From: Chrysomallon squamiferum
Lineage: Eukaryota > Animalia > Mollusca
Assembly (NCBI GenBank): GCA_012295275.1
Contig: CM022672.1
Location: forward strand, 15,314,001 to 15,378,000
DNA length: 64,000 bases
Direction of reading: 5' to 3'
Translations under genes and position numbers: made by a program
Part shown: positions 249 to 34,940 of the stretch, one piece after another
How the letters are laid out: every line of letters starts with the position of its first letter
Position numbering within the stretch: position 1 is the stretch's first letter
The notes under the pieces: generated by a model
Database searches by the model: none
What the model saw: the letters and a program-made list of their open reading frames with translations, nothing else
What the model was told of the DNA's origin: nothing

Positions 249-2484
249 AGTGAATTCTTCTCATGTTCATTGTAATCTATAATCTGCCTGGATGTTCTCA
301 AAACAAGCAGGATAATCAGACAGCTCAAATTAAATCCGATTCTACTAAGTCTTTGCAGGTATCAAGTCCAGATAGAAAAAGACCTATGAATGAAAGTGGC
401 GGTGTTGTGGTCAGACCTGTTCTACAGGCAGGCAATTTTACGAATGAAGTTCCAACCGTTCCAATTCCAGACTACCAGTATATGCATGGTCACTCACCAG
501 TTACAGACACATCTGAGATCTGTTACCCACCAAGTGTTCCAGGGGGAAACACAGTAGATGGAGACAGAATATCAGAATTAAGGGACTACAACAGAAACAT
601 TATTAACCAGTTCACGGCTTCAAATACAGAATCAGATGAAAATAATTTAATTGTGCCAGTGATATCCAAAGACAGAACATTGCTAGCATGTGAGGAAAAG
701 AAGATTAATATGTCTGAGAGTGTAAATGGAAATAGTGACAGAAGTACAAAGATAGAAGATAATGATGAATTGCAGCATTCCTGTCATTTACCACATTTCA
801 ACGTTCTGTTATCTTCTATGAGAGGACAAGGTAAAAAATATAGATCATCTTCTTTAGAGAGTTCTCATGACAATGGACTGAATGATAATAGTCTGGTTCA
901 GTCCACAGAAAAAATTTTCAGATTGAAAGTATAAATGAAATGAATGAATATTTGAATAATTCTACTGAATATTTTAATAAAGATATTATGGAGCCATATC
1001 TTCAAATTACTACTAATAGTTCTGTTGCTGATGATGAAAAATATGTCCCTTTGTCATTAACTGATTTTATAGATCCTCTAAATATTCAGAAACCTGCTGT
1101 AGAAAGAGCTACAAGTAAATTAAAAGTTGCTGAAAAGTTACTAGAAAATAAAACTGAAACACAAGCAAGAAGCTCTTCAGATGAATTCATGACCAAGACG
1201 TCATTTCTGTTGAACAAAAATGAAGAGAACACAGATAAAATGACAGTAAAGACTGAAGATACAAATGATTTCTCTGAATTCCACAAAAAAGATCAGCAAC
1301 TGGCAATAAATAATAGTGCTGTGAAGATAAATGCTACAGAGATAACAAGAACCCACTATGGTTACAAAGGAAGGAGTAAAACAAGATAAACTACCACTGC
1401 AGTCAAATTCAACTGAATCTTTAACATCTGGAGATGAAGGAAAATATACTCTGCCTGATAACATAAATGAAGGCCAGTGAATTGATTGAAGATGAAAGAA
1501 AAGATACTGTGCCTCATAAAATAAATGAAGCCAGTGCACTGATTGAAGATGAAAGAAAGATTCTGTGCCTGACATCATACGTGAAGTCAGTACATTGATT
1601 GAAGATGAAAGAAAAGATACTGTTCATGATAACATTAATGAAGCCAATTCACTGACTGAAGATGAAAGAAAAGATGCAGTACCTGATAACATGCATGAAA
1701 CCAATGCATTGACTGAAGATAAAGGAAAAGATGCTGTGCCTGATAACAATGAAGCCAGTGCATTGATTGAAGATGAAAGAAAAGATACTGTGCCTGTTCA
1801 TGATGAAGCCAGTGAACATTAAAGGAAATGAAGTACCCAAGAAGCCAACATTGACTGAAGATGAAAGAAAAGATGCAGTACCTGATAACATGCATGAAAC
1901 CTGAAGATGAATTGAATTGAAAAGATGATAACATGCATGAAGCCAGTGAATTGACTGAAGATGAAAGAAAAGATACTGTGCCTGATAACATGCATGAAGC
2001 CAGTGAATTGACTGAAGATAAAGGAAAAGATGCTGTATCTGATAACATGCATGAAGCCAGTGAATTGATTGAAGATGAAAGAAAAGATACTGTGCCTGAT
2101 AACATGCTATGACTGAAGATAAAGGAAAAGACCTGATAACATGCATGAAGCCAGTGAATTGACTGAAGATGAAAGCCAATGAATTGATTGAAGATGAAGG
2201 AAAAGATACTGTACCTGATAACATGCATGAAAAAGCCAATGCATTGATTGAAGATGATGAAAAAAGATACTGTGCCTGATAACATGCATGAAGCCAGTGA
2301 ATTGACTGAATAAAGGAAAAGAAGCATGCATGAAGCCAATGCAATTGAAGATGAAAGAAAAGATGCTGTGCCTGCGTCCATCTGATTGAAGATGAAAGAA
2401 AAGATACAAATCATTGATTATCAGATTCACTGATTACAGTTCAATTATAAAATAGTAAATGAAATATTTTTAAGTCTGAAATGA
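249..2484 (+). pseudogene. MAVS-like CARD gene copy A, 3' part of large exon 4, frameshifted
   Basis: ORFs 263-934, 940-1389 and 1565-1822 are consecutive, frame-shifted pieces of the protein seen at 11947-15196 and 23766-25760. There is a 1-nt loss at ~912 and many indels in the repeat. The 5' exons are not in the window. Confidence 0.75.
1430..2410 (+). repeat. Coding minisatellite, 57-bp unit (EDERKDTVPDNMHEASELI), ~17 units, many garbled
   Basis: Repeated gaagatgaaagaaaagatactgtgcctgataacatgcatgaagccagtgaattgatt. Confidence 0.92.
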
Positions 2485-7903: not shown

Positions 7904-7998
7904 ATTTGGGTCTTTAATATTTTAAAATATTGGTGTAATTTTTAAACGTTTCTCTATACATTTCTTTCGACCAACGAACATAAATATCAGATGAAAAG
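7895..7998 (+). other. Putative 5' leader exon 1 of copy B, ending in ATGAAAAG (uORF start)
   Basis: Lies between the TATA box and the consensus donor AAG|GTAAGT. The 5' end is approximate. Confidence 0.55.
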
Positions 7999-8355: not shown

Positions 8356-10664
8356 TTAAACCCGACCGTCTCAGATTTTTTTATGAAACTTGGTATACTT
8401 GTTGACTGGGATCCCACAGACCCAAATCATATTTTAAGCCAATCGGACCAGTGGTGTTTGAGATATTGTCAAAAATGGGCATGACCACCAACCTTTGAAC
8501 CTCATATCTCAGGAACTATTGGGCCAATCTTTATAAAATTGGTATTGTTCAAAAGGCAATATGACAAGGGATTCCCAAATCTGGGTCACTTACCTTTTGA
8601 CCTTTGTTATGACCTTGAAATTCACGGTGAAATTGACCGGGTGTAATATTTGTTGTTTAGCCACAATCAGGATTTTAAAAAATGCACGTCCATAAAAATA
8701 ACACCTTTTCTGCCATTAACATCTGATTAACTAAAACCTGAATGATCAGTTCTGGATGATAGGAATCACCATCTCTCTTGATTACCGAGTAAGACATTGT
8801 AGGCCTACATGTATGCATAAAGTTTAAATAAATTTGAAAGAACTAGGTGTTTCTGATGCTTAGCCTTATCACCATCTTTGTTTCCAATGCTCACTGTATC
8901 CTTTATTCCCAGACACATTCTACTGTTCTCGTCACTTTCATAAAATTGGACTATTTCCTCCTTTAATTCATTTGACAAAACGTTCCCTTGTTTCTTATCA
9001 CAGGGGGATAGAACCCCTTTCTCTTTCTTCACCACACAGCTTTTTTTCACAAGGTAATTCGTTGTTTCAAATTCATTCATTGTCCTTTCAATGGTAAAGA
9101 GTGACAAAGTCAAGATTTGCACATGTTCTGCATAGGATTCGGACTTGTTGAATTTCTCTTTTAACTCCTGAAATATGTTCCTGAAAAAATGAAGGTCTGG
9201 TTTTTCTGATGAGTCAAGGTCACTTTCAGGAGAATGAAGCAGAATATCATAGACTGTTTCAAGATGTCATTTTAATGTTACTGTAGCTGATGCTAGTTTT
9301 TTCTGTCCTCTCATTCGTTTACTGGAACGTGCTTGAAAGTTCTTGTTCATGATACTCTTGATGTCCCGTGTTTTGATCACACTTCGAAGTGTGAGGAGTT
9401 CAACTTCCTCAGTTTTCCATACACTTTGCAACAACTCCTTTTTGGTATGATGGTGTTGATAACACACATTTTCAGGAGAGTAAAAGCTGCAGTTAGCCCT
9501 GGAAGAAATAAGGATTTTCAGTATTGCCTGCACCTTCAATTCAATAGAACAAAGTCGGTACTTTCCTAAATATCAAATCAAACCCAGAAACCCTTTCAGT
9601 TAAGTTAAGTAGGTCATAAAATGGCAGCAGAGTACATGCGTCATTGCCAAAGGCCCACAAGCCTTGGGCATTTAGGTCAAACTTTTCAAGTATAAATCAC
9701 AATTTATCAAGGAGAAGGTAGACCTTGTTCATACTCTGTGCCAAAGACTGGATGTACAAATACATTATGCAGTACATCACTCGATGAAGTCTGATTTCAG
9801 ACTGATTTGTACTGTTGTTGACTGAAACCTTGTTCAAAACCATTGGTCAGGCCACATGACATGATAAAATGACTTAATAGGTTTTATGAAGAAAACATAA
9901 TGCTTACATATCAACATCTGTCATTATGTCCAACTTGATAGCTTCAGATTGTCAAAGAAATGCAGATGAAGAAACGTCTTTGTCTTAAACTTCTAGTTGT
10001 CATGTGCTCAATGGGGATTTCACCAGGGGATTTCAAGGAGTTCCTGACATGCCTGTTAACCCTTTGAGCCTTATTTTCGTAGAACATGTCATGCCATTTG
10101 GCATCTTTTCATATCCTTCAGGCATTCCTTCAAAAATGTCAGGTGGGTTTTAACTCCAAAGATGAGTTTTTGATCTCAGAGAAGTGAATACATGTAGAAA
10201 ATGTACATTGTAATGCATTGTATCAATCCTCCATCCAGGAATGCATGTTTTAAATCTATATTATGGCTAAACAACAAATATTACACCTAAGAAACATTTA
10301 TATGTTTTAATTAACATGTGGGAGATTCAATTTCAATAAAGGTCATCTCAAGGTCATGCGATCCACAGGTCAGTTTCAAGGTCATAACAGGTCAAAAGGT
10401 CAGTGAACCCAAAATTTTCCTTGTCATATTGCCTTTTCAACAATACCAATTTTATGAAGATTGGCCCAGTAGTTCCTGAGATATAACAGTTAAAAGGTTG
10501 GTGGTCGCAAAATTTGGGGGCCATATAAATCCAAACCACTGGTCTGATTGGCCTAAAATTTCAGATTTGGTGCTGTGGGATTCCAATCAACAAGTATACC
10601 AAGTTTCATAAAAATCTGAGTCAGTCGTGTTTAACCCAATGGGTGATTTGACACGGAATGACCC
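8356..10664 (-). mobile_element. Defective Sola2-like DNA transposon with long terminal inverted repeats
   Basis: Absent from copy C. 8356-~8690 is an inverted repeat of ~10240-10635. The intact terminus reads GGGTCATTCCGTGTCAAATC on the - strand. The transposase remnant 8805-9122 (EIVQFYESDENSRMCLGIKDTVS...QKHLVLSNLFKLY) resembles the Sola2 transposase N-terminal region. Confidence 0.75.
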
Positions 10665-10695: not shown

Positions 10696-10833
10696 ATGAA
10701 TCCTCTAGATGACTATTTTGTTGTCAATGAAGCCAAGAAGAAGCTTGTTCGTATAAATTTTCGAAAACTTTTGGATCCAGAATGTCCAAACATAATAGAC
10801 AGTCTGGCAGATTTTCTTAGTCCAAGAGAAATG
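10696..10833 (+). CDS. MAVS-like CARD gene copy B, exon 2 (CARD first half)
   Basis: tag|ATG...GAAATG|gt, 138 nt, open: MNPLDDYFVVNEAKKKLVRINFRKLLDPECPNIIDSLADFLSPREM. Same length and splice sites as copy C. Confidence 0.85.
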
Positions 10834-11138
10834 GTTTACTTTTTAAATTTTTTACTATAATTAACTATTTATTTTATTTCATTTTCATTTATTAACTTTC
10901 TTTTTTATTTATTTATTTTAATTTTAAATCTTTTTTATTGATATTATATTTGAATATAAACAAATCTGTTTCAATTTTTATATTTATTTTTTAGTTATTT
11001 TTTTTTTTTTTTTTTTTTTTTTAGATAACCCAGTAATTTCTTTATAGAACCTTTAACCTTTCTTCGACTGGTAGATATATAGCCCTTTTGTAATAATGAC
11101 CTGAAACAGTAATAAATTAATATTTCTGATTATCTTAG

Positions 11139-11290
11139 GATGAACTAAAAAAAAGACATCAAAACCATGCCAATCAAGATGTCATGGGAAAATTGTGGGA
11201 CTATGCCATGAAACGAGATTGATTGGTGGATAAAAATGGAAAAAGTACTGAGAGAAGAAGGTTATCTAAAAGAAGCTGATATACTGGCAG
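11139..11290 (+). CDS. MAVS-like CARD gene copy B, exon 3 (CARD second half); 1-nt insertion gives TGA at 11220-11222
   Basis: ttag|GAT...GCAG|gtat, 152 nt versus 151 nt in copy C. Reads DELKKRHQNHANQDVMGKLWDYAMKRD, then the frameshift, then WWIKMEKVLREEGYLKEADILA. Confidence 0.8.
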
Positions 11291-11914
11291 GTATACATCA
11301 TCATATACTTCTATTATAAATGATTTGAAATAAGTTGAAAATGAAGAGAAATAGAACATATATATTGATGAATCTGTATTTCTTAAATTGGTTTAGAAGA
11401 GAATGAGTTAACAGTCAGTTTTATCAATTTAATTGAAGATTAAGTTCACCATGTTAAAGAATAAAAATGTATATATACATATATAAATGATTATTTAGAG
11501 ATTTCTCTTAACAACAATGAATATGTATATGCTTGTATACATGCTATCATACATATACACACAAACATACATATGTACAGACTGCAGAGATGATTTCCTG
11601 GAAGAAAAATACTGATCAATGTTCTTACGTATCAAAAGTGTTACACAAAAAATAGTTTTAATGCATATTGCAGACAATTATATTGTTAAAATTTAGTTTC
11701 ATTAATGTTGTTTTGAGAAACACATTTTTGGAAATTGGAAAATTTCAAAAAAAGTTTTGTATCCTTAAAATAGGGCTTTATTTAAAAGTCTGATTCAGTT
11801 AGTGGATAGTGTCCCATATATATGTCTCTCTGTGTGTGTATGTTTCTGTGTTTATGTATATGTATATGGATATGTAAGTTATGTTATGTTTATTTATGAA
11901 GTTTTGAATTCCAG

Positions 11915-14900
11915 AGCATACTGTTTCCACAGAACATCAAGCACAGTTGCAAGCACTTCCTCATCCAGCACAACTTAATGAATCACATGTGCAGAATGCA
12001 CAACAAAACCTTTCAGCTGTTTATCAACACCAGTATCCTACAGATAATAAACCTCCTCCTTATCATGAGGCTGTTTTACAAACACAGCCTTATTCCTTAC
12101 GAGATCAACAAACATCTGAACCAAATGTCCAAGGATGTGTGAACCCAGAGGTTTATAACATGCACAGGCAGCCAGTGATAGTAGAACAACCGCTGCAAGA
12201 ATATCTACAACAGCAGCCATGTCCTGGTCAAACTCAGAACAGTGAACAACATTTTATTACTGATCAAGCTAAACAGTTAGAAAAAATCCAACATCACAAG
12301 TCTGTTAGTTCAAAAGACTCTCAGAGTCAGGAAAATATTTTCAAAGAGAAGGAAGAAAGTGTCACAAAGAACAATGGTAAAGTATCTAATTACAGTGTTC
12401 TTAATGAGAGACAGAAGAACAAAACAGTTGATGCTGAAAGCAGATCATCAGTTGCTAGCAAATCTTTATCTGGTGGAGGCCAGTTATCTCATATTGCATC
12501 AAAACAGCAGAATGTTTCTAGAAGTGGTGAAAATGGTGTGTTATCTCAAGATATTACACTTTTTAATGAAAACAATACTAATACTTCTACTAGTGGTAGT
12601 AAAGGAAAAGTATCTTCAGTGAATTCTTCTCATGTTCATCCTAATCTAAATCTGCCTGAATGTTCTCAAAACAAGCAGGATAATCAGACAGTTCAAATTA
12701 AACCCGATTCTGCTAAGTCCGTGCAGGTATCAAGTCCAGATAGAAAAACACCTATGAATGAAAGTGGCAGTGTTGTGGTCAGACCTGTTCTACAGGCAGG
12801 CAATTTTAGGAATGAAGTTCCAACCGTTCCAATTCTAGACTACCAGAATATGCATGGTCACTCACCAGTTACAGACACATCTGAGATCTGTTACCCACCA
12901 AGTCTTCCAGGGGGAAACACAATGGATGGTGAGAGAATATCAGAATTAAGGGAATACAACAGAAACACTAGAAGCCAGTTCACAGCTTCAAATACAGAAT
13001 CAGATGAAAATAATTTAACTGTGCCAGTGATATCCAAAGACAGAACATTGCCAGCATGTGAGGAAAAGAAGATTAATATGTCTGAGAGTGTTAATGGAAA
13101 TAGTGACAGAAGTACAAAGATAGAAGATAATGATGAATTGCAGCATCCCAATCATTTACCACATCTCAGCATTCTGTTATCTTCTGTGACAGAACAAGAT
13201 AAAAAATGTAGATCATCTTCTTTTGAGAGTTCTCATGGCAAAGAACTGAGTGATAACATTCTAGTTCAGTCCACAGAAGAAAGTTTTCAGATTGAAGGTA
13301 TAAGTGAAGTGAATGAGTATTTGAATAATTCTACTGATAATTTTAATAAAGATATTATGGAGCCATATCTTCAAATTACTACTAATAGTTCTGTTGCTGA
13401 TGATGAAAAAAGTGTCCCTTCATCATCAATTGATTTTACAGATCCTCTAAATATTCAGAAACCTGCTGTAGAAAGAGCTACAAGTAAATTAAAAGTTGCT
13501 GAAAGGTTAGAAGAAAATAAAACTGAAACACAAGCAAGAAGCTCTTCAGATGAATTCATGACCAAGACGTCCATCTCCATTACAGAACAAAAATGGTGAG
13601 AAAATGACAGTAAAGACTGAAGATACAAATGATTTCTCTGAATTCCACAAAAAAGATCAGCAACTGGCAATAAATAATAGTGCTGTGAAGATAAATGCTA
13701 CAGAGATAACAAGAACCCACTATGGTATTACAAAGGAAGCAATAAAACAAGATAAACTATCACTGCAGTCAAATTCAGCTGAATCTTTAACATCTGAAGA
13801 TGAAAGAAAAGATACTGTACCGGATGCCATAAATGAAGGCAGTGAATTGATTGAAGATGAAGGAAAAGATACTGTACCTGATAATATAAGTGAAGTCAGT
13901 ACATTGATTGAAGATGAAAGAAAAGATACTGTGCCTGATAACATACATGAAGCCACTGGACTCATTGAAGATGAAAGAAAAGATGCTGTACCTGATAACA
14001 TGCATGAAGCCAATGAATTGATTGAAGATGAAAGAAAAGATACTATGCCTGATAACATAAATGAAGGCAGTGAACTGATTGAAGATGAAGGAAAAGGTAC
14101 TGTGCCTGATAACATAAATGAAGCCACTGGATTCAGTGAAGATGAAAGGAAAGATACTGTGCCTGATACCATAAATGAAGCCTGTGCATTGATTGAAGAT
14201 GAAAGAAAAGATGCTGTGCCTGATAACATAAATGAAGCCAGTGAATTGATTGAAGATGAAGAAAAGATACTGTACCTGATAACATAAATTGATTGAAGAT
14301 GAAGAAAGAAAAGATGTACCTGATAACATGCATGAAGCCAGTGCATTGCCTGCCTGATAACATAAATGAAGCCAGTGCATTGATTGAAGATGAAAGAAAA
14401 AGATAACTGATGTCAGTACATTGATTGAAGATGAAGGAAAAGATATAACATAAGTGATGTCAGTACATTGATTGAAGATGAAGGAAAAGATACTGTGCCT
14501 GATAACATGCCTGATAACAGTACATTGATTGAATGAAAAAACATAAATGAAGCCAGTGCATTGATTGAAGATGAAAGAAAGGATACTGTGCCTGATAACA
14601 TAAATGAAGCCACTGGACTCATTGAAGATGAAAGAAAAGATACTGTGCCTGACATCATAAGTGAAGTCAGTACATTGATTGAAGATGAAAGAAAAGATAC
14701 TGTTCATGATAACGTAAATGAAGCCAATACACTGATTGAAGATGAAAGAAAAGATACTGTGCCTGATAACATACATGAAGCCAATGAATTGATTGAAGAT
14801 GAAAGAAAAGATACTATACCTGATAACATGCATGAAACCAGTGAATTGACTGAAGATAAAGGAAAAGATGCTGTACCTGAAATGACTGAAGATAAAAGAA

Positions 14901-15196
14901 AAGATACTGTGCCTGATAACATGCATGAAGCCAGTGAATTGATTGAAGATGAAAGAAAAGATACTGTGCCTGATAACATGCATGAAGCCAATGAATTGAT
15001 TGAAGATGAAAGAAAAGATACTGTACCTGATAACATGCATGAAGCCAGTGAATTGATTGAAGATAAAGGAAAAGATATTGATACACTTGGTAGATCAGCC
15101 ACCACAGTTACTGAGCAGCCATCTAGATACAGATCATTGATTAGCAGTTCAATTACCAAAAAAATAGTAAATGAAATATTTTTAAGTCTGAGATGA
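11915..15196 (+). pseudogene. MAVS-like CARD gene copy B, large exon 4 (disordered region plus acidic repeats), frameshifted as assembled
   Basis: Acceptor ttccag| at 11914 is in phase 1 and in frame with ORF 11947-13599. There is an extra C at ~13571 versus copy C and further indels at 14260-14545. ORFs 13604-14287 and 14561-15196 continue the protein. Confidence 0.75.
13796..15078 (+). repeat. Coding minisatellite, 57-bp/19-aa acidic unit, ~22 units
   Basis: Period of 57 (e.g. gattgaagat at 14941 and 14998). Translates as IEDERKDTVPDN(M/I)(H/N)EA(S/N)EL. Confidence 0.95.
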
Positions 15197-15656
15197 ACTT
15201 ATTTATTGTAGAAGGATCTGTAAAGATTTCTCAGTCAGGCTGTAAACAAATAATGAAAGAAAGAAAGAATTATTAACATTAAATATTTACTGATTTAAGA
15301 ATATTATTCTGTTTTTGTAATAGCTTTTAAAAAAGATATATATATTTTGAAGATTTTATCTATTATGTCAGTATTTCTAAACTATGATGTTAGTATTTAC
15401 AGTGATTGCATAATTACAGATGTTTATTGCTTTATAATACTGAAGATTGTACCTAATGTTTGAACATAAAATGTTACATTAATATTCACAGTGATAACAT
15501 AATTACAAATTTTTTTTAAATCTGTTTTTAAGGAATTGGAAGAGGAATGTTAATAATATTTATAAAAAGGAATGATTTACATGTGTTAACTAAAAACATC
15601 ATGGTATCTAATGTAAAGAATTTATAATGAATGGCTTTCCTAATTACTTCTTACAG

Positions 15657-15718
15657 TTGTACCTTGTGCTTTATTAAGTATACAACAGAGTACAGCTTCA
15701 AGTACAGACTTCAAGTGA
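15657..15718 (+). CDS. Putative small terminal exon of copy B
   Basis: Same acceptor and sequence as 2963-3024 and 26085-26146. Confidence 0.4.
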
Positions 15719-15776
15719 GCTGAAAAGTCTTCATTTTATCTCACCATTTTTCATTTTCTTCCATCAGCTGTGAATA

Positions 15777-15777
<1 letters not shown>

Positions 15778-15844
<67 letters not shown>

Positions 15845-15870
15845 GATAGATAGATAGATAGATAGATAAA
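15778..15870. repeat. (AAT)n(GATA)n compound microsatellite
   Basis: Directly visible. Shorter versions lie at ~3080-3125 and ~26200-26255. Confidence 0.9.
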
Positions 15871-17945
15871 TAAAAATAATCTGAAAGGAAATCATTATTT
15901 TTAATAAATATGATGGTGGAAAGATAAATGCTGGACAAAAACAAAAAAAGTTATTATTTAATTCTTTGAGGAGAGAAAAAGATTTTAAAAATTGGAAAAG
16001 AAAAGAATTATAATAGTAATAATTTCATTTATCATCATTAGCTTTTGACACTTGTCATTAGATAACTGATCTTACCATTGATGGAAAAAGAAACAGTTTT
16101 AGTAATTGTATCTAAATATTCAGAGTTTGAACTTGGAAATTTTGATGTCAAAATAACCAGAAATTCATGAAACTGTACTTAATATGGGAAATTAAAAAAC
16201 TAGTATTTTCAGCATCAGTGGATTATTACTTCATAATGTGCTGAGTGACGTTTCACTGACTTTTTTGTGCACTATCAGAAATGATTAATATTTTGTTCCA
16301 CTGTTGATTAAAAGAGTATCTGATTACCTAAATATGTTGTAAGATGATTAAAATAAATTTTCGTTTCAGAAATACTCAAAAACTGCCCTTACATAATTTA
16401 TCTTACAGTTTTCTGTATTGTTTTTTGTTTTGTTTTTTAGTTTAGTAACTTATTCATTCCAATTGAATTAACTTAAATATTTTTAATTAAATTTAAATAT
16501 TTTCTCAACACAATGTTGCCTTCTGAATTTATAATATCTTATTACAGAAATTTATTTTTTCACAGAGATGTAATATATATATTTATTTAATCATATGCCA
16601 GATATTGCATTGGCATTAAATTTATATTTATTCCTTGAAATCTTTATTTTTTTTATTATTATTTTTCAAAACCATCATTTAATTTTCATTAAACATCAAC
16701 TTGCTTTTGAAGTAACTATCATTGTAATTATGGTTATTTTTTAATTTTATGATTATTATTATTATCATTGTTTGAATATAGTTTTTATGTTATTTATAGA
16801 TTATGTCTCTAAAATGTTATATTTTCAAAACTTAATTCTAAGTATCTCAAATTATTTTTGTTTTGTTGATGTTGTTATCGTTTTCATTTCTTTACAAAGT
16901 GCTTTGTTGAAGAAATTTCCCTTTCTTGCTTTGATTTTACTGTTATATATTAATCATAACTAATTGCTGTTTATTTTATTTTCAATTAGATATTAAAATA
17001 ATTTCCAGTGATAGAACCCAGTGATTGAAAAGTTCCAGCAAAACACAATTTGTTAATCTAATCTGGTTTCTTATTAATATAATAAAACGTTTTCAATACT
17101 GGGGTTTTTTTTCTTTTTTTTTATTTTTTTTTTTTTTCATCTTTTTCTACTTTTTTTTTTTTTTTTTTTTTTATCTTCTATTTCTTTGTCATTTACGACT
17201 TCTTTTCATCTTTTTCCATTTTTTTTCTCATAATTTCTGTTTTCTTCCAGGTTTTCTACTTTTTTCTTACTTTTTAGTTTCTACTACTTTACTTTTACTT
17301 TAAGTTTCTTTATTATTATTATTATTCTTTTGATGGTAATATCACTAAACAAAAATATATCACATCTATATAACAAATTTATAACAGATCAAGTGCTTTG
17401 TTAATTAAAACAGTTATTTTGTTTTAGTCAAAGAATATAAAATACTCTTTTCCATCTGATAATGATTCTAATCTTCAAACTCGAATTCAGAGCAAATGAG
17501 AAATGATTGTGTTATTTTAAAGTGTAATATATATTCTGAATTTTCAAAAATAAATAGATGGAAAATATATCTCTTGCATTATAGTAAATCAGAAGTCTTA
17601 ATTTTTGTGTCTAACCTTTTTAAATCAAACGGATATATAATCGTACAACTTAAAAACAATTTTCATTTTCAAAACAAACTTTGCAGTAGTTAATGTAATA
17701 ATTATCATGATGCATTTACTATTGTATTTATACATTTGTATAAATCTGTATTTAGTAATCGAGAAAAACAAATAGATTATGAGAAAAGCACCAACCTCCC
17801 TGAAAAATAACTTCCTACAGAATTTTAAGTAATTTTCTCAAGATTATGTTATTCATCGTGAATTGTACCAGGACAAAAATCTTGCCTACTATGGTTGTAA
17901 AATAATAATGCATAACATTGTAATCTATATACTGGTATATATATA

Positions 17946-17977
<32 letters not shown>

Positions 17978-18285
17978 TAAACAAAACTTAATCTCAATAT
18001 ATAACACTTTGTTAAAAGTCTGCGTGTGTATCTGGGTTTAAAGTTACATGTTTATTCAAGAAAATAATTTACTTTATTACTGTAATTTTTAAATATTTAT
18101 TCATTTACTATGAATTGATTACACTAAAGCTACAGTATACAGACCTTAACCTTTCCCTCTGGATTCTCTTTATCTGTGGGTTTTATGCACATATAAAATT
18201 ATTATAAAACCGACCTTCGCTCCCTACCAGACTGTGATCACGTAATGATAAATTAAATACTCATTTACAAGCAAATAACTGTTTT

Positions 18286-18315
18286 GAAAGTGAAAGCAAA
18301 ACATAGTTTCACTTT
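18286..18315. promoter_or_regulatory. Inverted pair of ISRE/IRF-type motifs
   Basis: GAAAGTGAAAG (18286-18296) and AGTTTCACTTT (18305-18315). A homologous pair lies at 27861-27890. Only the second motif survives at 5188-5198. Confidence 0.45.
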
Positions 18316-19885
18316 TGCCTTCTTGGAAAGACAAATCGTATATTGGAACATTACCCATATAATTGTAAAGGTTGTTTACAAAGAACCATTGACTGGATAT
18401 TTGGTTTATTCATTGTGTGTGTTATTATTTTCACAGAGAAAATATAAAAGTGACTATAAGAAACATACATTGACAGACAAATTTATAATAACACTCATCC
18501 AAACACAAATACACATACAAGAACACATTTGTTAGAAAATTTCATAAAAAAGAAATTAATCGCATTTAAGGAAATCATTGCAAGTGATATAAAGATCAGT
18601 TTTCCAAATGCAATCTTCACTTTCCAGTTTTGTTCCAAGCAAACTTGACAGTAAAAAAATTCAATGATCTGTATGTGCCAAATAATGCCCAAATTTCCTT
18701 TCCAATTTTCCATATCACGTAAACAAAGATCGGAAAGTGGATTCTCAGGAACAGGTTCTCATTTCCTCTTATAATGTGTGGTAAAGATCTGCATTATCAG
18801 ATGGGCTAACAGCTTCAACATTTTGTTTAATATATAAATGTGTGAGTGTTTGTGCTGTGTCTGTGTCTGTACTATTCAATGCCGTTACAAAATGTGGCAG
18901 AATAATCCATCTAGATGGTAAGGTTCACTTACAAGGAAAATATCATTTTGAACTGTGAAAGAATAATAGCTGTACGATTATGGTCACAACTGTTAATTCT
19001 CCACTAGTTTTAGAAAAATATATATATATAAAAATAATAATAATAATAATAAATAATGAAATAATGAAACCTTTCTACCCAAAGGCTTGATAAAAAGGAA
19101 ATGAATTTATTATCATATTCTGGGCTGTGCTGGGCACTTCAACTAGTAACAAATAAAATAATAAATAGAATAAATAAAATAATAAAATAATAAATTAAAT
19201 AAATTTAAAAATAGAATAAAAAAGACAACAAATTTTGTTAACATTTACGAGATATATTAAATATCAGATTATTTTACTATCAACATTTAAAGCATGACTG
19301 TAGCAATGGTTTTAAAAAATATATTTATAAAAATAATACAGGCTTCAAAATAAGATTAAAACATTTTAAACCAAGTTTTTAACAAATGAACCTTAACGAC
19401 CACTTTTTAGCCTCACCACAGTACTGCAACAATTTTAAGTTACTTTTGTACACACATTTCAGAATAGTAAAGTAAGTTACATACAACATATTCTGGATAA
19501 TGTACGTATAAATGTGTGTGTTAGTGTAATGTTTGCAGGCATGCAGTGATATGTAATAACTGTTTTGAAGCCTGTTTTATAATAACGTAAATCACTGGGG
19601 GGCTTTAATTAATAATTTTGTATAATTAAACATAAGGTATTTTCTGAAACACTACAATACTGTTTCTTACAAAAGTTGGCTGATGATTTTAGTTTTAACT
19701 TTTTAACTAATTTGAGATAAGACCTCTACATTTCTAAAAAATAAAATAGAATAAAATAAATAAATAAATAATATAAGAAGATAAATAATAACAATAATAA
19801 TCATTCATCTCTGTGTCATAAGTTGGCTAATAATTTAAGTTTTAATTAACCTTTTAACTATTTTGAGATACGATCTCTATATTTC

Positions 19886-19918
<33 letters not shown>

Positions 19919-20554
19919 TAAATAAATTTAAAAAGTATATAATAAATAATAAAAACAATAATAATCTTTCATTTCTGTCATAAACATTATTAACCCTATT
20001 AAAAATAATAATAAATTAAAAAAAAAAAAAAAAAAAATGAAATGTCAGTAACATTAAACTTTCCTTTCAGAGTGTATTAATTTTTAGCATTAAATATAGT
20101 TTATTTCTTCTTCCTACTTTTTTTTTTTATTTTTATTTCATGGTTTATTTTATATTTTAAGTATATATTTAACTTTTCGTCTCAATCGTGCAGGATAAAG
20201 GGTTCGGTACCTGTACAATCAGAGACACTCACTAGCAAACAGATTAATTTTGGATGGAAAATATCAGTACTCTCACGCAGTAGCGTATTACTGATGTAAT
20301 GAATTTGTAACAAAATATTTAAATCATATGTGAAGTAACCTAATTGGAAAGAATAAAATATGAATCCGAAAATATTTGATTTTAATGTGATACAAGTTGT
20401 TTAATGCGTCTGCTTTCTTCCTTCATGTCTACACAGGTTTGTTTAGGTTTGCGTATGATTATTTTTGGAGACTGTGTTTAACCTAGACAGCCTACAAACC
20501 ATCTCTTTTTATTCTGTAATTAAAGGGTAGTTCATTAACTGGATTTAGTACTAC

Positions 20555-20593
<39 letters not shown>

Positions 20594-20881
20594 TAACTTT
20601 TGATTTTTATATATGTTACAGTTATAATGTTGGTGCTGGGACAACCGATTGTTAGAACGCGCAGCGCAATCTTAATATACAGGGTTTTTCGTTTTTTTTT
20701 TTCTGTTGTAAGTGATGTTTGTTTGTTTATTTTGTTCCATAAAAAATATAAATATTACACATTCTGTGTTTATAATGTTCTTTTATTCATCCTTTGCAGC
20801 GCTTCACATTAATGATTAAATTAGCCATTATTTATATTACAACCACAAAAAAAAAAAAAAAAAAAAAAAATAAGTTTAACT

Positions 20882-20970
20882 GGTTTTCGTTTGTGGCGGA
20901 ATATCATTAAGAAACGTTGTCATTAATGTACTATAAATAGTTATTTGGATTTTTATCGTTATTTCACTTA
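20882..20970 (+). promoter_or_regulatory. Putative core promoter of copy C
   Basis: GGTTTTCGTTT at 20882-20892, TATAAATA at 20932-20939, TTCACTT downstream. The leader exon ends ATGAAAAG|GTAAGT at 21063. Confidence 0.55.
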
Positions 20971-21521
20971 TTTTGGCTTTAATATTTTAAAATATTGGTG
21001 TAATTTTTAAACGATTCTATATACATCTCCTTCGACCAACGAAAATAAATATCAGATGAAAAGGTAAGTTTGTATTTATACACGAGTTTCAGTGTCAAAG
21101 TGACAGTAGTATCGACTATCGTAGTCACCGTCACAGCAGTGTAATTCATTCATTGTTTAACAAACTCGACGCTGTCACTGATTCTAAAATCAAAATCTAA
21201 CTTTCTTATAATGACAGAATAAATAAATAAAAGAAAAGTAAAAAGGTGAATTAGTTTAGGAACATCAAAGAAGAGTAGAAAATCTCAACAGAAACCGAAT
21301 TTCCAACAATACAATTAAATCACAGTATTTCATTTATCTACAACTAAATTTCCCTTATTTATTGGTAATTAGTCATATGATGTAAGATACGGCAAAAATA
21401 AATCAAACAGTACTTCTTGAATCATCTTTCAGTTTCTTTGTGTTAATTCTTTTGGTCCCAGATTTTAGCATTTGTTCGGCCTGTAATCTAATTTTATTAC
21501 TTTTTTTCTCTCTCCCTTTAG

Positions 21522-21659
21522 ATGAATCTTCTACACGAATATTTTGATGTCAGTGATGCCAAGAAGAAGCTTGTTCTTAAACATTTTCTAAAACTGTTGC
21601 AACCAGAATGTTCAAACATAATAGACAGACTGGCAGATTTTCTTAGTCCAAGAGAAATG
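21522..21659 (+). CDS. MAVS-like CARD gene copy C, exon 2
   Basis: Long polypyrimidine tract, ttag|ATG, 138 nt, phase 0: MNLLHEYFDVSDAKKKLVLKHFLKLLQPECSNIIDRLADFLSPREM. Confidence 0.88.
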
Positions 21660-22022
21660 GTTTTCTTTTTATTTATTTTTATATAATTAACTATTTTATT
21701 TTATTTAAATTTTATTTTATTAACTTTATTTTTTTTTTTTTATTTATTTATTTATTTATTTTTTTTTATTTTAAATCTTTTTTTTATTGATATTATATTT
21801 GAATGTAAAAAAATATGTTTCAATTTTTATATTTATTTTTTAGTTATTTATTATTATTTCTTTTTTATTATTATTAACTTTTTTTTTTTTTTTGAATTTG
21901 TATTTTTTTTTAATATTTTGAATCGAACTTATTATTAATGTTTAAAAAAAAATTGCCATTAATATTTAATTGACTAATTCTTTAATTTAAAAGAGAGATT
22001 GACATTAATTTGTTGTGAAATA

Positions 22023-22743
22023 CTGAGGTATCACGACTTCCAAGTTTTTCGAGTTATGAGCAGCTGCCTGGTCAATTGTTTTCTTTGAGTTGTGAGCCAA
22101 AATCCAAGTTACAAGCAAGCTTCAGATACGCCGCTGCTAGTTGGCAGAATGAACAACATTACATCCAGCCAGCATCCCACGTGTCACTCGTTTATTTCAC
22201 GTGGTTACCTCGCCACGGAAGCATCTGTGTTGTGTTGTACTCGCGTTTTGTGCAGTGCTTTGTCAAATTTCTTTTTTCTGGTCATGGATCCTAAGAAAGT
22301 GAGAGCAAAGGACAGTGCTGAGAAGAAGAAGCGGATGATGTCCTTTGAATTAAAGATTGAATTCATAGAAAAATATGAGTGAGGTGTGCATTTAGTTGAC
22401 TTGGCTAGGCAGTACAAGCATAGTACTTCTACAGTATGCACCATACTGAAGCAGAAGGAGTCAATAAAGGCTATAACTCCAGCCAGAGGAGTTAAAATAA
22501 TTTGTCTGATCTCCAAGATAAAAATACTTTAAAAAACCAATTTATTTCTTTATATTCTTTTATTTTATTTTTATTTGTCATGTATAAATACATGTTCCTT
22601 ATTATAAAAAATAAAAAAATCGGGGTGGTTTTTAGGGGGCTGAATCAGATTAATCAGTTAGGAAAATTGATTTGATATACAAGCAGATTGAGATACGAGC
22701 TCAGTCACGAAATGAATTAAACTCGTAAGTCAAGGTACCAATG
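22023..22743 (+). mobile_element. Defective Tigger/pogo-family (Tc1-mariner) DNA transposon
   Basis: TA on both sides (22021-22022, 22744-22745). Degenerate TIRs CTGAGGTATCACGACTTCCAAG and CTCGTAAGTCAAGGTACCAATG. A CENP-B-type HTH remnant runs from 22284: MDPKK...KKRMMSFELKIEFIEKYE*GVHLVDLARQY...STVCTILKQKE. Confidence 0.85.
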
Positions 22744-22988
22744 TATTCTGCAATTCAAAATAGTTAAATAAAAGGAAAGACATAACTTTGCAAAAGATAC
22801 TGAATATCAGAAATAAAAGTTCAGCAATAATAATTATTCTCATAAAAAACAAAATTACTTACTTAAATATCGTTCAAAGATAACCCAGTAATTTCTTTAT
22901 AGAACCTTTAACCTTTCTTAGGGTGGTAGATATATAGCCCTTTTGTAATAATGAAACAGTAATAAATTGATATTTCTGATTATCTTAG

Positions 22989-23139
22989 GATGAACTAAAA
23001 ACCAGAAGTGATAACCATGCCAATCAAGATGTCATGAGGTCACTGTGGCACTATGCCATGAAACGAGATTATTGGTGGATAAAAATGGAAAAAGTACTGA
23101 GAGAAGAAGGTTATCTAAAAGAAGCTGATATACTGGCAG
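22989..23139 (+). CDS. MAVS-like CARD gene copy C, exon 3
   Basis: ttag|GAT...GCAG|gtat, 151 nt, phase 0 to 1, open: DELKTRSDNHANQDVMRSLWHYAMKRDYWWIKMEKVLREEGYLKEADILA. Confidence 0.88.
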
Positions 23140-23691: not shown

Positions 23692-25760
23692 AGCATAATG
23701 TATCCACAGAACATCAAGGACAGTCCCAAAGACTTCGTGAACCACCACAACTGCTCGAATCACATGTGCAGAATGCACATGCATTTACACAACAAAACCT
23801 TTCAGCTGGTTATCCAGCAGATATTAAACCTCCTCCTTATGAAATGGCTGTTTCACAGTGTTATTCTTTTCGAGCACAACAAACATTTCAACCAACTGTC
23901 CAAGGATGTATGAACCCAGGGGTTTATAACTCCAGAAGTATTGACATCCACAGACAGCCAGTGATAGTAGAACAACCACTGCAAGAATATCTGCAACATC
24001 AGCAATGTCAAGAGCAGCTTCCTGGTCAAACTCAGAACAGTGCACAACATTTTATTATTGATGACAGTGTAGTCGTCTCTGATCAAGCTAAACAGTTCGA
24101 AAAAATCCAAAGTCACAAGTCTGTTAGTTCAAAAGACTCTCAGAGTCTGGGTCTAAATATAGAAACATGTCAGGAAAATATTTTCAAAGAGAAGGAAGAA
24201 AGTGTTAGAAAGAACAACGGTAAAGTATCTAATTACAGTGTTCTTAATGAGAGACAGAAGAACAAAACAGTTGATGCTGAAAGCAGATCATCAGTTGCTA
24301 GCAAATCTTTATCTGGTGGAGGCCAGTTATCTCATATTGCATCAAAACAGCAGAATGTTTCTAGAAGTGGTGAAAATGGTGTGTTATGTCAAGATATTAC
24401 ACTTTCTCATGAAAACGATACTAATACTTCTACTAGTGGTAATAAAGGAAAAGTATCTTCAGTGAATTCTTCTCATGTTCATCCTAATCTAAATCTGCCT
24501 GAATGTTCTCAAAACAAGCAGGATAATCAGACAGCTCAAATTAAACCCGATTCTGCTAAGTCTTTACAGGTATCAAGTCCAGATAGAAAAACACCTATGA
24601 ATGAAAGTGGCAGTGTTGTGGTCAGACCTGTTCTACAGGCAGGCAATTTTAGGAATGAAGTTCCAACCGTTCCAATTCCAGACTACCAGAATATGCATGG
24701 TCACTCACCAGTTACAGACACATCTGAGATTTGTTACCCACCAAGTGTTCCAAGGGGAAACACAATGGATGGAGAGAGAATATTAGAATTAAGGGAATAC
24801 AACAGAAACACTAGAAGCCAGTTCACGGCTTCAAACACAGAATCAGATGAAAATAATTTAATTGTGCCAGTGATATCCAAAGACAGAACATTGCTAGCAT
24901 GTGAGGAAAAGAAGATTAATATGTCTGAGAGTGTTAATGGAAATAGTGACAGAAGTACAAAGATAGAAGATAATGATGAAATGCAGCATCCCAATCATTT
25001 ACCACATCTCAGCATTCTGTTATCTTCTGTGACAGAACAAGATAAAAAATATAGATCATCTTCTTTAGAGAGTTCTCATGGCAAAGGTCTGAGTGATAAC
25101 ACTCTGGTTCAGTCCACAGAAGAAAGTTTTCAGATTGAAGGTATAAATGAAATGAATGAATATTTGAATAATTCGACTGATGATTTTAATAAAGATATTA
25201 TGGAGCCATATCTTCAAATTACTACTAGTAGTTCTGTTGCTGATGATGAAAAATATGTCCCTTTGTCATTAACTGATTTTATAGATCCTCTAAATATTCA
25301 GAAACCTGCTGTAGAAAGAGTTACAAGTAAATTAAATGTTGCTGAAAAGTTAGAAGAAAATAAAACTGAAACACAAGCAAAAAGCTCTTCAGATGAATTC
25401 ATGACCAAGACGTCATCTCCATTACAGAACAAAAATGGTGAGAAAATGACAGTAAAGACTGAAGATACAAATGATTTCTCTGAATTCCACAAAAAAGATC
25501 AGCAACTGGCAATAAATAATAGTGCTGTGAAGATAAATGCTACAGAGATGTCAAGAGCCCACTATGGTATTACAAAGGAAGCAATAAAACAAGATAAACT
25601 ACCACTGCAGTCAAATTCAACTGAATCTTTAACATCTGAAGATGAAAGAAAAGATAATGTACCGGATGCTATAAATGAAGCCACTGCAGTGATTGAAGAT
25701 AAAGGGATGGACAAAGAAAATTTGCTTAGTCATGCTGAAGCTTTACAAATTAGCAAATGA
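23692..25760 (+). CDS. MAVS-like CARD gene copy C, large exon 4; exons 2-4 give a 785-aa open frame
   Basis: Acceptor ttccag| is phase 1 and in frame with ORF 23766-25760 (138+151+2069 = 2358 nt). Loss of one A near 25755 would extend the frame into the tail shared with copy B, to 25905. Confidence 0.85.
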
Positions 25761-30644: not shown

Positions 30645-30775
30645 TTAACTTGTAGAATGGTGTCTTGTGGTCCCTTCTCTGATCTGATTTGCTTCACCCA
30701 TCAGTGTATGCAGCATCTCAGTAAGCTGGTCGTCTTTCAGATCTGTGATAACTGGATCACTGGTTGAATTACGAT
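30645..30775 (-). CDS. RTKN: Rhotekin terminal coding exon
   Basis: ttacag| acceptor. The phase-1 frame reads DRNSTSDPVITDLKDDQLTEMLHTLMGEANQIREGTTRHHSTS*. Confidence 0.7.
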
Positions 30776-31248
30776 CTGTAACACACAATCATAATAACAG
30801 CAACAACAATAACAGTAAAAACAATAATAATAACAATAACAAAAAGCAATGAACCTGATCATAATGATGAATATAATACTAAAAACTATGATGCTGATGA
30901 TGACAGCTATAATAAAACAACAGTAATAATGATGACAACAATAATAACAACTGTAGTAAATAATTTGTAACACAGATCAGTTATTCCCTATCCAGATTCT
31001 TCAAATAATTAAAATTAATCAGTTCGGTTCTAAGTGTAAAAAAAATATTCAGTTTTTAAAACTTTGCAGATTTCAAACAACTTACTTTTCACTTATTTAA
31101 AATGATGGTGTGTCAGAAGTAGACTTTTAAAAAAAAAAAAGAATGGGTTTAAAAATATACACAGCATTTTAGTGAAAACTTACCTGCTGTGCAGTGTATA
31201 TTAAAGATGAAAAGATTTTTGGAAAAACGATTGAAGCTACTGACCTAC

Positions 31249-31359
31249 CTATCAAAGGTGTGTCATCATATAATGAACTTTTGCGCTGGACGGCTGGATT
31301 TTTTCTCAAAGATGTCTCGGGTACATCCATTAAGAAATCACAGGCATGTTTCCAAAGTG
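31249..31359 (-). CDS. RTKN: Rhotekin exon (post-PH); alternative donor extends it to 31184
   Basis: ALWKHACDFLMDVPETSLRKNPAVQRKSSLYDDTPLI. Donors are G|GTAGGT (31249) and CAG|GTAAGT (31184). Confidence 0.8.
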
Positions 31360-31458
31360 CTGAAGAAAACAATACAAGCAATCTTTGTAATCAAAAATAG
31401 TAATTACAACTATCATTTACAACATGCTGACAACAATTTTAGAATAGTTGAATTATTT

Positions 31459-31497
<39 letters not shown>

Positions 31498-31903
31498 GCC
31501 TATTTAAAAAGATTTTAAATTTTAATTGATTTTTAATGGTAATTTTATTTTTCTAATAGTTTTTGTATTAAACTACTTTATAAAAAAAAAATTGCCACAT
31601 TTTCATTAAAATCATTTAAATTGATGAACAACGTAATAAAAATAAAAAATAAAATTTAAATTTAAAGATTGCATTCATTAAGAAATATTTTTTGAAAAGA
31701 AAAAGTAAGAAAGTAAGAAAATCTCTCTAAAAAAATTTTTTAACCCAACGGCAGAAGTCTTTATTAATCAATTAGTCAGTAATAATGAAAATAATCATTT
31801 AAAAACAAATAAAAAATTAACAATAATAATAATAATAATAATAATAATTAATAATAATAATAATAAATACATAAATACATAAATAAGGTAAACTCTCACT
31901 GAC

Positions 31904-32069
31904 CTTGGTCAAGAAGGTGTTGCTGAAAACCATCCCACCACCGGTTGAAGTCTTCCTGTGAGTCAGCTGACAGGGTGTGTTCCAGTACTCCGGTCAGTGA
32001 CACAGTTTTGATGTGGAATGTGTGAGGGCCTTTACACGCAGCAGGATCAGCATCACTAATTTGTGTGTT
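31904..32069 (-). CDS. RTKN: Rhotekin exon, PH domain C-terminal half
   Basis: NTQISDADPAACKGPHTFHIKT...EHTLSADSQEDFNRWWDGFQQHLLDQ. AG/GT sites, 166 nt, phase 0 to 1. Confidence 0.9.
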
Positions 32070-33055
32070 CTGAAAGACAAACAGTTAAAACTTCCACTCT
32101 GTAAACACTTCCTTCACCCACGAAAATACAACAGTACAGGGAGATTAAAACTTTTATGTTGTGTTGCTGGTAAATGAAAAGGACAGAGATTTATTCAAGG
32201 TGTGAGAGGTGAGGAAATTGTCATTTTCACAGCAAGAGAAAATCCAGTAAATGAAATCTGCATGTACACCAGTCTTATATCATGAGGTATTTGCATCTTT
32301 TTCATCTGGCTGATTTTATTTATTCACTGTGAAAAACATTTTTTTGTAAAATTAGACGCAATGATAAAAACAAACCATCTGTTCAAAACAATCCTATATA
32401 TAATTTTCTAAACAAGTTGAATTCTTGCAAAATATCAGTTATTATTATTATATATTTTTTTTTTTTCACTGCTCTAAGGATAACTGGCTTATCATATTTA
32501 CTCAGTGTGATAAACAGATTCAAAAAATTGTATATTCAGATTGGACCTCTGTAATCCGGCATTCACTAATCCTGCAGTTCAGTGGTTTAGGAAGATAATT
32601 TAAATCTGGTGGTAATTAGTTTGTATGGCTGCTGCTTAGCCAGCTGCAGTACCAACAGTGCCACATACTGTTTGGCCTTAGCTTATTTACAGTAGTTGGT
32701 GCTGGTGTAGAGACAGTATTCTTTTTCACTGGTAGCTTACTACTAAATATACCTCCTAAAGCAACCAGCAAGTAGTGCAAGTGGTGGTAACATTTCAAAA
32801 TGCAAACATGTGTCATTAACACTGATTATAAAAGATGAAAAAACACCAGAATAGCATTTCATCATAAATAGGTCCACTAAGCTTGAAAAAGGTTTATGTC
32901 TGTATACTATTATATTGGCATCATCAATACATTACAGCACATGCACAAATTCATCATTTTTTTGTTCTGCCCTCACGTTTCAGAGAGGATCAAACTATAA
33001 AATGTTGCAGCTGTTTTTCTGTCTCTCATACTGCATACAAAGAAATGATACTAAC

Positions 33056-33181
33056 TTTAGTGACTGAAATTGTCAACAATGGAGCTGCCACTTCAACATC
33101 ACTTGGTGAAGACCAACAGGCAAGATGTAGGTTTTTCAGAACACACCAGTATCGCTTCCATTTTGAAAGATCGTCATCTTC
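33056..33181 (-). CDS. RTKN: Rhotekin exon, PH domain N-terminal half
   Basis: EDDDLSKWKRYWCVLKNLHLACWSSPSDVEVAAPLLTISVTK. 126 nt, phase 0 to 0. Confidence 0.9.
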
Positions 33182-33193
33182 CTATTAACAGTG

Positions 33194-33668
33194 AAATAAT
33201 ATGTCAGCTACACACTTCATCATACATTCACTACTAACAATACAAATCTACAAAGGTGTCTAAATAGTATGTCAGCTACATACTTCATCATACATTCACT
33301 ACTAACAATACAAATCTACAAAGATGTCTAAATAATATGTCAGCTACATACTTCATCATACATTCACTACTAACAATACAAATCTACAAAGGTGTCTAAA
33401 TAGTATGTCAGCTACATACTTCATCATACATTCACTACTAACAATACAAATCTACAAAGATGTCTAAATAATGTCAGCTACATACTTCATCATACATTCA
33501 CTACTAACAATACAAATCTACAAAGATGTCTAAATAATATGTCAGCTACATACTTCATCATACATTCACTACTAACAATACAAATCTACAAAGGTGTCTA
33601 AATATTATGTCAGCTACACACTTCATCATACATTCACTACTAATGATGCAAGTCTACAAAGGTGTCTA
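33194..33668. repeat. Intronic minisatellite, 68-bp unit x7
   Basis: aaataatatgtcagctacatacttcatcatacattcactactaacaatacaaatctacaaagRtgtct repeats at 33194, 33262, 33330, 33398 and onward. There are no spacers. Confidence 0.95.
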
Positions 33669-34173: not shown

Positions 34174-34280
34174 CTGTATGTTGAGGTAACCTGTGACTGC
34201 AGTTTCTACAAGACACTGAGGAACAGCAGCCAGTCTGCAGCAGTAGTGTCCAAACAGAGGAAGTTCGTGGACTACGCCTT
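34174..34280 (-). CDS. RTKN: Rhotekin exon (end of anillin-homology domain)
   Basis: EGVVHELPLFGHYCCRLAAVPQCLVETAVTGYLNIQ contains the LPL(Y/F)G..CCRLAA motif. 107 nt. Confidence 0.92.
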
Positions 34281-34842: not shown

Positions 34843-34940
34843 CTGCATTTTTTTCCAGTTCCACATCAAATGTTCTCACAGACTCATCTACATCTGACAA
34901 CTGAAGAGAACCTCGTGCGACTAGATCAAACTTGGGTCCT
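34843..34940 (-). CDS. RTKN: Rhotekin exon (anillin-homology domain)
   Basis: GPKFDLVARGSLQLSDVDESVRTFDVELEKNA. 98 nt, phase 2 to 1. Confidence 0.9.

What the first reader, a model, noticed from the sequence alone, without database searches (positions are those of the whole stretch)
10696..23139. CARD exons of copies B and C diverge almost only by amino-acid replacements
Hand count: exon 2 has 16 nt differences giving 13 amino-acid changes in 46 codons, with one purely synonymous codon. Exon 3 has 12 nt differences giving 6 amino-acid changes, with one purely synonymous codon, all within its first 21 codons. Many changes alter charge (RIN/LKH, R/L, D/Q, S/R, KRHQ/TRSD, GK/RS, D/H), while likely core residues are fixed. 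The first 170 nt of the next intron differ at only 6 sites. Inference: there is diversifying selection on CARD interaction surfaces, either for paralog-specific partners or to escape viral antagonists. Caveat: intron 1 is also fairly diverged, so gene conversion from mid-exon 3 onward may explain part of the contrast, though not the replacement bias.
Basis: partly seen in the sequence, partly recalled or inferred. Interest (0 to 1): 0.8.

Follow-up and report, generated by a model that had tools for sequence, protein, structure and literature searches.

The report
Snail CARD-like duplicates, selection unproven
Two neighbouring copies of a likely immune-adaptor (CARD-like) gene in a snail differ mostly at predicted surface residues while hydrophobic residues are spared, but their share of amino-acid-changing mutations is no higher than chance gives, so the proposed arms race is possible but not shown.

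Summary
The hand counts are right: exon 2 has 16 nt and 13 aa differences, exon 3 has 12 nt and 6 aa. The 'replacement bias' is not unusual. 84% of changes are non-synonymous against 80% expected at random; ML dN/dS is 0.87-1.33 (P 0.6-0.9), and the low-complexity exon 4 also gives about 1. Hydrophobic positions are spared (2-3 changed, about 7 expected), 15-16 of 19 changes fall on predicted polar helix faces, and 7 of 8 exon-4 indels keep the frame. Polar-site dN/dS is about 2 (95% range about 0.7-8). Divergence is a gene-conversion-like mosaic, with copy-specific insertions flanking exon 2. The host is a gastropod near Gigantopelta and abalone, judged from the neighbouring rhotekin gene. 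The CARD label is plausible but unconfirmed: no Pfam or PDB hit for either half, and no homologue found. The layout recalls MAVS, reported missing in abalone and Aplysia, but no transmembrane anchor was found. Verdict: young tandem paralogues with a constrained core and a fast surface; relaxed constraint (0.45) and diversifying selection (0.38) cannot be separated with two sequences.

The parts
7991..7998 (+). Copy B: 3' end of the upstream (probably untranslated) exon; strong donor at 7999; its ATG makes a 3-codon upstream ORF whose stop overlaps the main ATG after splicing
   Evidence: sequence; splicing inferred
8356..10634 (.). 2.3-kb insertion with long terminal inverted repeats (DNA-transposon-like) in intron 1 of copy B only, ending 61 nt before exon 2
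10696..10833 (+). Copy B coding exon 2, 46 codons, first half of the CARD-like domain, phase-0 end
11139..11290 (+). Copy B coding exon 3, second half of the domain; one extra base at about 11221 creates TGA at 11220-11222
11915..15196 (+). Copy B exon 4: long polar low-complexity tail; extra base at about 13571; about 22 copies of a 57-bp coding repeat (13795-15080) with a scrambled centre; tail stop at 15194-15196
21056..21063 (+). Copy C: 3' end of the upstream exon, donor at 21064
21522..21659 (+). Copy C coding exon 2, 46 codons (P0001)
21870..22876 (.). About 1-kb insertion in intron 2 of copy C only
22989..23139 (+). Copy C coding exon 3, 50 codons plus 1 nt (P0002), open
23692..25760 (+). 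Copy C exon 4, open for 689 codons (predicted 785-aa protein); the tail shared with A and B follows out of frame and stops at 25903-25905
249..2484 (+). Copy A: 3' part of exon 4 only, with 4 frame-shifting indels in the unique part and a degenerate 57-bp repeat array; its CARD-like exons are not in the window
30648..63475 (-). Neighbouring rhotekin gene (HR1 and PH domains), tail to tail with the array; used to place the host and as a control for assembly errors

Best explanation
These are young tandem copies of a likely CARD-plus-disordered-tail signalling gene in a gastropod, whose hydrophobic positions are conserved while the predicted surface likely drifted at about the neutral rate after duplication, inside a patchwork likely made by gene conversion. 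Shown: three tandem units (A partial, B 13.0 kb, C 9.2 kb), the exon sequences, dN/dS near 1 in the domain and in the tail, sparing of hydrophobic positions, in-frame exon-4 indels, patchy divergence, and 1-nt shifts in B. Inferred: both copies made folded protein for most of their divergence; redundancy relaxed constraint on the surface; conversion reset some tracts (end of exon 3, start of intron 3, middle of exon 4) while the insertions on each side of exon 2 shielded it; B's shifts are recent or are assembly errors. Inferred from recalled family knowledge: the protein would act as a scaffold that oligomerises through CARD-CARD contacts and recruits partners on its tail.
For: ML dN/dS 0.87-1.33, LRT P 0.61-0.90, range about 0.45-5. 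Exon 4 B-C dN/dS 0.96-1.15 over 636 codons; its first 100 codons have pN 0.14-0.15 and pS 0.11-0.14, the same level as the polar CARD sites (0.143-0.149). Hydrophobic class dN/dS 0.27-0.64 against polar 1.8-2.0, difference P 0.0005-0.03; polar=1 not rejected, P 0.21-0.31. No such sparing in exon 4. 7 of 8 exon-4 indels in frame against 14 of 57 non-coding, P=0.001. Variance/mean 2.9 over 83 windows of 100 columns. Three-way site patterns come in runs, 117 against 148 expected, 0 of 10,000 shuffles. Insertions flank exon 2; PMC3924837 (passages) says TE insertions and large indels disrupt conversion.
Against: Polar non-synonymous density (20.5 of 143 sites) exceeds every same-length non-coding window (0 of 4,293-4,889 overlapping windows, maximum 18-19), and the whole domain is in the top 1-2.4%. 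7 codons carry two changes against 2.6-3.5 expected (P 0.003-0.022). Transversions dominate (20 of 28; P=0.035 against exon 4, 0.06 against adjacent introns, 0.39 against all non-coding). Full relaxation of a binding surface with an intact core is not the usual state of a working CARD (own knowledge). The CARD label has no profile hit.
Confidence: 0.45

Rival explanations
1. Diversifying selection on the CARD surface: selection fixed partner- or antagonist-changing residues and resisted gene conversion, leaving a divergence peak over the two exons.
For: Polar-class estimate 1.8-2.0; polar replacement density above all non-coding windows; 15-16 of 19 changes on polar helix faces, P 0.010-0.016; excess of two-change codons; no relative found among 1.84 billion representatives although the neighbouring rhotekin is 85% identical to Gigantopelta's, which fits fast evolution. 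A divergence peak is the described signature (PMC3924837 passages); primate MAVS is under positive selection, one site lying in the CARD (PMC3302847 passages).
Against: No test of dN/dS>1 is significant. Exon 4's first 100 codons are as diverged, synonymous sites included. Close-spaced changes are also enriched in exon 4 (ratio 1.5 vs 1.6), and multinucleotide mutations mimic selection (bioRxiv 10.1101/165969, abstract). Insertions give a neutral cause for the peak. Net charge barely changes. B reads as broken.
Confidence: 0.38
2. Neutral decay: B is an old pseudogene and most differences arose on it without constraint.
For: B has a stop in exon 3, a shift in exon 4 and a scrambled repeat centre; overall dN/dS is about 1.
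Against: Hydrophobic positions are spared whichever copy is the reference (2 of 36 in B, 3 of 37 in C; P 0.004-0.045); 7 of 8 exon-4 indels are in frame; no in-frame stop from substitution in B's exon 4 read in C's frame; splice sites intact; private exon-4 changes are similar on B and C (6 syn/18 non-syn and 3/15).
Confidence: 0.07
3. The domain is not a CARD but another helical domain (for example retroelement Gag-derived), so talk of filament interfaces does not apply.
For: Exon-2 peptide's best ESM Atlas hits are Gag p30/p24-C clusters (0.90, 182 shared features, family on 12% of members). No CARD hit in Pfam or PDB for either half.
Against: Exon-3 peptide's family-bearing Atlas hits are all death-fold clan (CARD, CARD_2, DED, Death; 0.77-0.86). 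No Gag hit in Pfam either. The domain is about 96 residues, N-terminal, amphipathic and split by a spliceosomal intron. Its residue pattern resembles RIG-I/MAVS-type CARDs (recalled, not tested).
Confidence: 0.1
4. B and C are uncollapsed haplotypes or an assembly artefact rather than true paralogues.
For: 1-nt shifts occur in all three copies and the repeat centre is scrambled, as in imperfectly polished long-read assemblies.
Against: Three units in tandem with different lengths and private insertions; 5-6% mean divergence with closest pair switching along the unit; rhotekin has no shift in about 1,480 coding nt, though this is weak (P=0.17).
Confidence: 0.05

Closest known systems
Vertebrate MAVS (IPS-1/VISA/Cardif)
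   Same: One N-terminal domain of about 96 residues followed by a long polar tail. Two coding exons end at residue 96; human MAVS has 97 residues ahead of its third coding exon (PMC5536018 passage). First 150 tail residues are modestly Pro-enriched (7.3% vs 4.3%).
   Different: No transmembrane helix (best 19-residue hydropathy 0.48 in C, 0.89 in B's tail), no PxQxT-type or TRAF6-type motif, no proper pLxIS; several tandem copies; a 19-residue acidic repeat; no detectable sequence match.
Oyster and scallop MAVS (CgMAVS)
   Same: Molluscan, single N-terminal CARD (PMC5557890 passages).
   Different: CgMAVS has a Death domain and an essential C-terminal TM; neither is seen here. Reported as a single homologue (PMC11103948 passages).
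Aplysia stand-alone RIG-I/MAVS-type CARD genes (LOC101858480, LOC101846979)
   Same: Gastropod genes with this CARD type and no helicase or RLR C-terminal domain (PMC9334734 passage).
   Different: Not compared directly; they were not returned by any search.
Duplicates diverging under gene conversion (human red/green opsins)
   Same: Mosaic identity with a divergence peak over coding exons (PMC3924837 passages).
   Different: Here the peak is not confined to the domain, flanking insertions can explain it, and no functional site is known.

Membership tests
CARD domain (death-fold clan) | Match to a CARD profile (PF00619, PF16739) | tested here: inconclusive
   No Pfam family at E<=5 for either exon peptide of C and no CARD for B's pieces; only half-domains were scanned, the spliced domain was not scanned as one piece
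CARD domain (death-fold clan) | Six-helix death fold | tested here: inconclusive
   Single-sequence models of each half are just long helices; Foldseek 0 matches; Atlas features point to death-fold for exon 3 but to Gag for exon 2
CARD domain (death-fold clan) | About 90-residue amphipathic helical domain with a conserved hydrophobic core | tested here: met
   96 codons; hydrophobic positions spared and changes on polar faces; not specific to CARD
MAVS | C-terminal transmembrane anchor | tested here: not met
   None in exon 4 of B or C; hydrophobic frames in the 3' flanks are AT-rich and were not shown to be spliced exons; a further exon cannot be excluded without RNA
MAVS | TRAF-binding and pLxIS motifs (patterns recalled) | tested here: not met
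   No PxQx[TSED], no TRAF6-type and no pLxIS match; only the loose 4-residue TRAF2 pattern and one LxIS in C (0.26 expected by chance)
MAVS | Proline-rich or Death-domain middle region | tested here: inconclusive
   Polar low-complexity tail, 7% Pro in the first 150 residues; no Death domain
MAVS | Binds RLR CARDs, sits on mitochondria, activates IRF/NF-kB | not testable with these tools
   needs bench work
RIG-I-like receptor | DExD/H helicase and C-terminal regulatory domain | tested here: not met
   exon 4 has no Pfam family and ends in a stop
Gene under positive selection | dN/dS significantly above 1 | tested here: not met
   power 16% at dN/dS=2 and 34% at 3
Gene under positive selection | Site-model or polymorphism evidence from many sequences | not testable with these tools
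   no further copies, alleles or orthologues found

The most novel reading that the evidence does not exclude
A highly diverged, membrane-anchor-less MAVS-like adaptor exists in a gastropod lineage close to abalone, where MAVS has been reported missing, and it is expanding in tandem with its CARD surface under diversifying selection against gene conversion.
Probability: 0.15. Interest if true: 0.68.

Novelty: new member of a known kind. Interest (0 to 1): 0.3.

Why it matters
As found, it is an ordinary birth-and-death gene array, and a useful caution: about 80% of random coding changes are replacements, so 19 replacements from 28 changes is not a signal. It would matter more if the spliced domain proves to be a RIG-I/MAVS-type CARD. 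Two papers report no MAVS in abalone and Aplysia and both allow for a very divergent one (PMC11103948, PMC9334734; passages). This gene would be a concrete candidate for the missing adaptor and two natural surface variants would be ready for binding tests.

Tried and rejected
No genome is held for the window and no read data were obtained, so expression and the reality of the 1-nt shifts stay open. Homologue searches were empty: exon 4 (0 of 7,085 candidates), exon 3 peptide (0 of 5 candidates; 0 at E<=0.001 among 1.84 billion representatives; 0 of 222 pattern matches in metagenome contigs; 0 exact DNA matches; no phage match). Only 2 copies of the exon-3 motif lie in the window. PDB sequence searches gave only E>0.2 unrelated hits. 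Half-domain folds were uninformative. No Rfam family in 1-31000. No earlier findings. NG86 with kappa 2-3 gives dN/dS 1.6-1.8, still not significant, and was set aside because fitted kappa is 0.7-0.9. Restricting to codons 1-67 is post hoc and changes nothing. A TM-like frame near 5290, 18390 and 27950 was rejected as an exon: AT-rich, a frame-breaking deletion just upstream in C, and no conserved acceptor seen by eye. One codon at B's insertion was left out of all codon counts (95 of 96 used). Paper searches for gastropod MAVS/CARD listed nothing on this gene; supplements were not consulted and may list such genes.
Full report
Anatomy. Self-comparison shows three tandem units on the + strand: A (partial, from before the window to about 7050), B (to about 20060) and C (to about 29260). 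B and C each have an upstream exon ending at a strong donor, a 138-nt exon starting at ATG, a 151/152-nt exon and a large last exon. C reads as a 785-residue protein: 96 residues of helical domain, then a Ser/Glu/Asn/Gln-rich tail. The spliced structure is inferred from splice signals, not from RNA. Downstream on the minus strand lies rhotekin (HR1 and PH domains), 85% identical to Gigantopelta aegis, 77% to Haliotis, 75% to Patella and 69% to a chiton. The host is thus a gastropod of that kinship.

The observation. They are what chance gives: 80% of sites are non-synonymous and 84% of changes are; random placement gives 19.2-21.0 replacements against 19 seen. Five codon models give dN/dS 0.87-1.33 with P 0.61-0.90, range about 0.45-5. 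Exon 4 gives 0.96-1.15 for B-C and 1.24-1.62 for pairs with A, none significant. Charge changes are slightly high, below P=0.05 in 1 of 8 settings.

Not simple decay. Only 3 of 37 hydrophobic positions of C and 2 of 36 of B differ, against about 7 expected (P 0.004-0.033; with empirical base rates 0.007-0.045); exon 4 shows no such sparing. A helical-wheel test that ignores each site's own residue puts 15-16 of 19 changes on the polar face against 27-34 of 76 unchanged sites (P 0.010-0.016). A two-class model gives dN/dS 0.27-0.64 for hydrophobic and 1.8-2.0 for polar codons. In exon 4, 7 of 8 indels keep the frame against 14 of 57 in non-coding DNA (P=0.001; a second aligner split one 12-nt gap into 5+7). 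Both copies were therefore coding for most of their history (inference). One-base shifts occur in B (2), A (4) and probably C, whose shared C-terminal tail is out of frame. Rhotekin has none in about 1,480 nt, which does not separate real decay from assembly error (P=0.17).

Selection or relaxation. For selection: polar replacement density (20.5 of 143) is above all same-length non-coding windows (maximum 18-19; windows overlap, so only some 35-40 are independent), and the domain is in the top 1-2.4%; 7 two-change codons (P 0.003-0.022) and a transversion excess in one of three comparisons. Against: polar dN/dS=1 is not rejected (P 0.21-0.31; range about 0.7-8); the first 100 codons of exon 4 reach the same divergence at synonymous and non-synonymous sites alike; clustering of changes is as strong in exon 4, and such clusters can arise in single mutations and mimic selection (10.1101/165969, abstract and outline seen). 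Divergence is patchy (variance/mean 2.9; 17 of 83 windows at 10% or more) and the closest pair among A, B and C switches along the unit, as gene conversion produces. A TIR element in B and a 1-kb insertion in C flank exon 2. PMC3924837 (passages) names both such insertions and selection as causes of locally high divergence. With power of 16% at dN/dS=2, the data cannot decide. I put relaxation at 0.45 and diversifying selection at 0.38.

What the protein is. No search confirmed a CARD. Each half alone has no Pfam or PDB match and no homologue. The ESM Atlas links the exon-3 half to death-fold families (0.77-0.86, leads only) but the exon-2 half to Gag capsid clusters (0.90). The residue pattern resembles RIG-I/MAVS-type CARDs by my recollection, which is a lead and not a test. 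The exon layout parallels human MAVS, whose first 97 residues precede its third coding exon (PMC5536018, passages). But there is no transmembrane helix, no clear TRAF or pLxIS motif and no Death domain as in oyster MAVS (PMC5557890, passages). It should not be filed as MAVS; it may work like a CARD scaffold. Abalone and Aplysia are reported to lack MAVS, and Aplysia has helicase-less genes with this CARD type (PMC11103948 and PMC9334734, passages). Expansion and positive selection of CARD-bearing sensors in lophotrochozoans are in print (PMC8998645, passages), as is selection on primate MAVS (PMC3302847, passages).

Verdict. A real, correctly counted difference between two tandem paralogues, with a constrained core and a fast surface. 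The headline inference is unproven and its stated basis is a property of the genetic code. New member of a known kind; interest 0.3, with a 0.15 chance of being the divergent gastropod MAVS-like adaptor.

Noticed in passing
window 13795-15080, 1429-2407, 25637-25705: 57-bp (19-residue) acidic coding repeat: about 22-23 units in B, 16-17 in A, 2 in C; 18 of 22 unit spacings in B but 7 of 15 in A are multiples of 3, and B's centre (14283-14540) is scrambled
   Followed up: partly
window 25698-25905: C stops at 25760, but the C-terminal tail shared with A and B follows in another frame after a 79-nt segment, so C may also carry a 1-nt shift
   Followed up: partly
window 7991-7998/10696 and 21056-21063/21522: A 3-codon upstream ORF across the first splice junction ends on a stop that overlaps the main start codon, identical in B and C
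   Followed up: no
window 7135-7434 and its match near 20140-20440: Only 2 differences in 300 columns, about 600-850 nt upstream of the first donor; promoter or 5' exon, or a recent conversion tract
   Followed up: no
window 8356-10634: DNA-transposon-like element with about 300-nt terminal inverted repeats and decayed ORFs without a significant Pfam hit
   Followed up: partly
window 21870-22876: Insertion in C's intron 2 that looks like a Tigger/pogo remnant (recalled label; no Pfam hit)
   Followed up: partly
window 1-249: Copy A's exon 4 homology begins abruptly at 249 after unrelated sequence, so A is interrupted or truncated
   Followed up: no
window 33194-33669: 68-bp unit repeated 7 times at 95% identity in a rhotekin intron
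   Followed up: no
window 30648-63475 minus strand: Intact rhotekin gene with a 23.5-kb intron between the first two matched exons
   Followed up: yes
exon 4 of B and C, residue 145: A PPxY motif is kept in both copies within the most diverged part of the tail (0.04 expected by chance)
   Followed up: no
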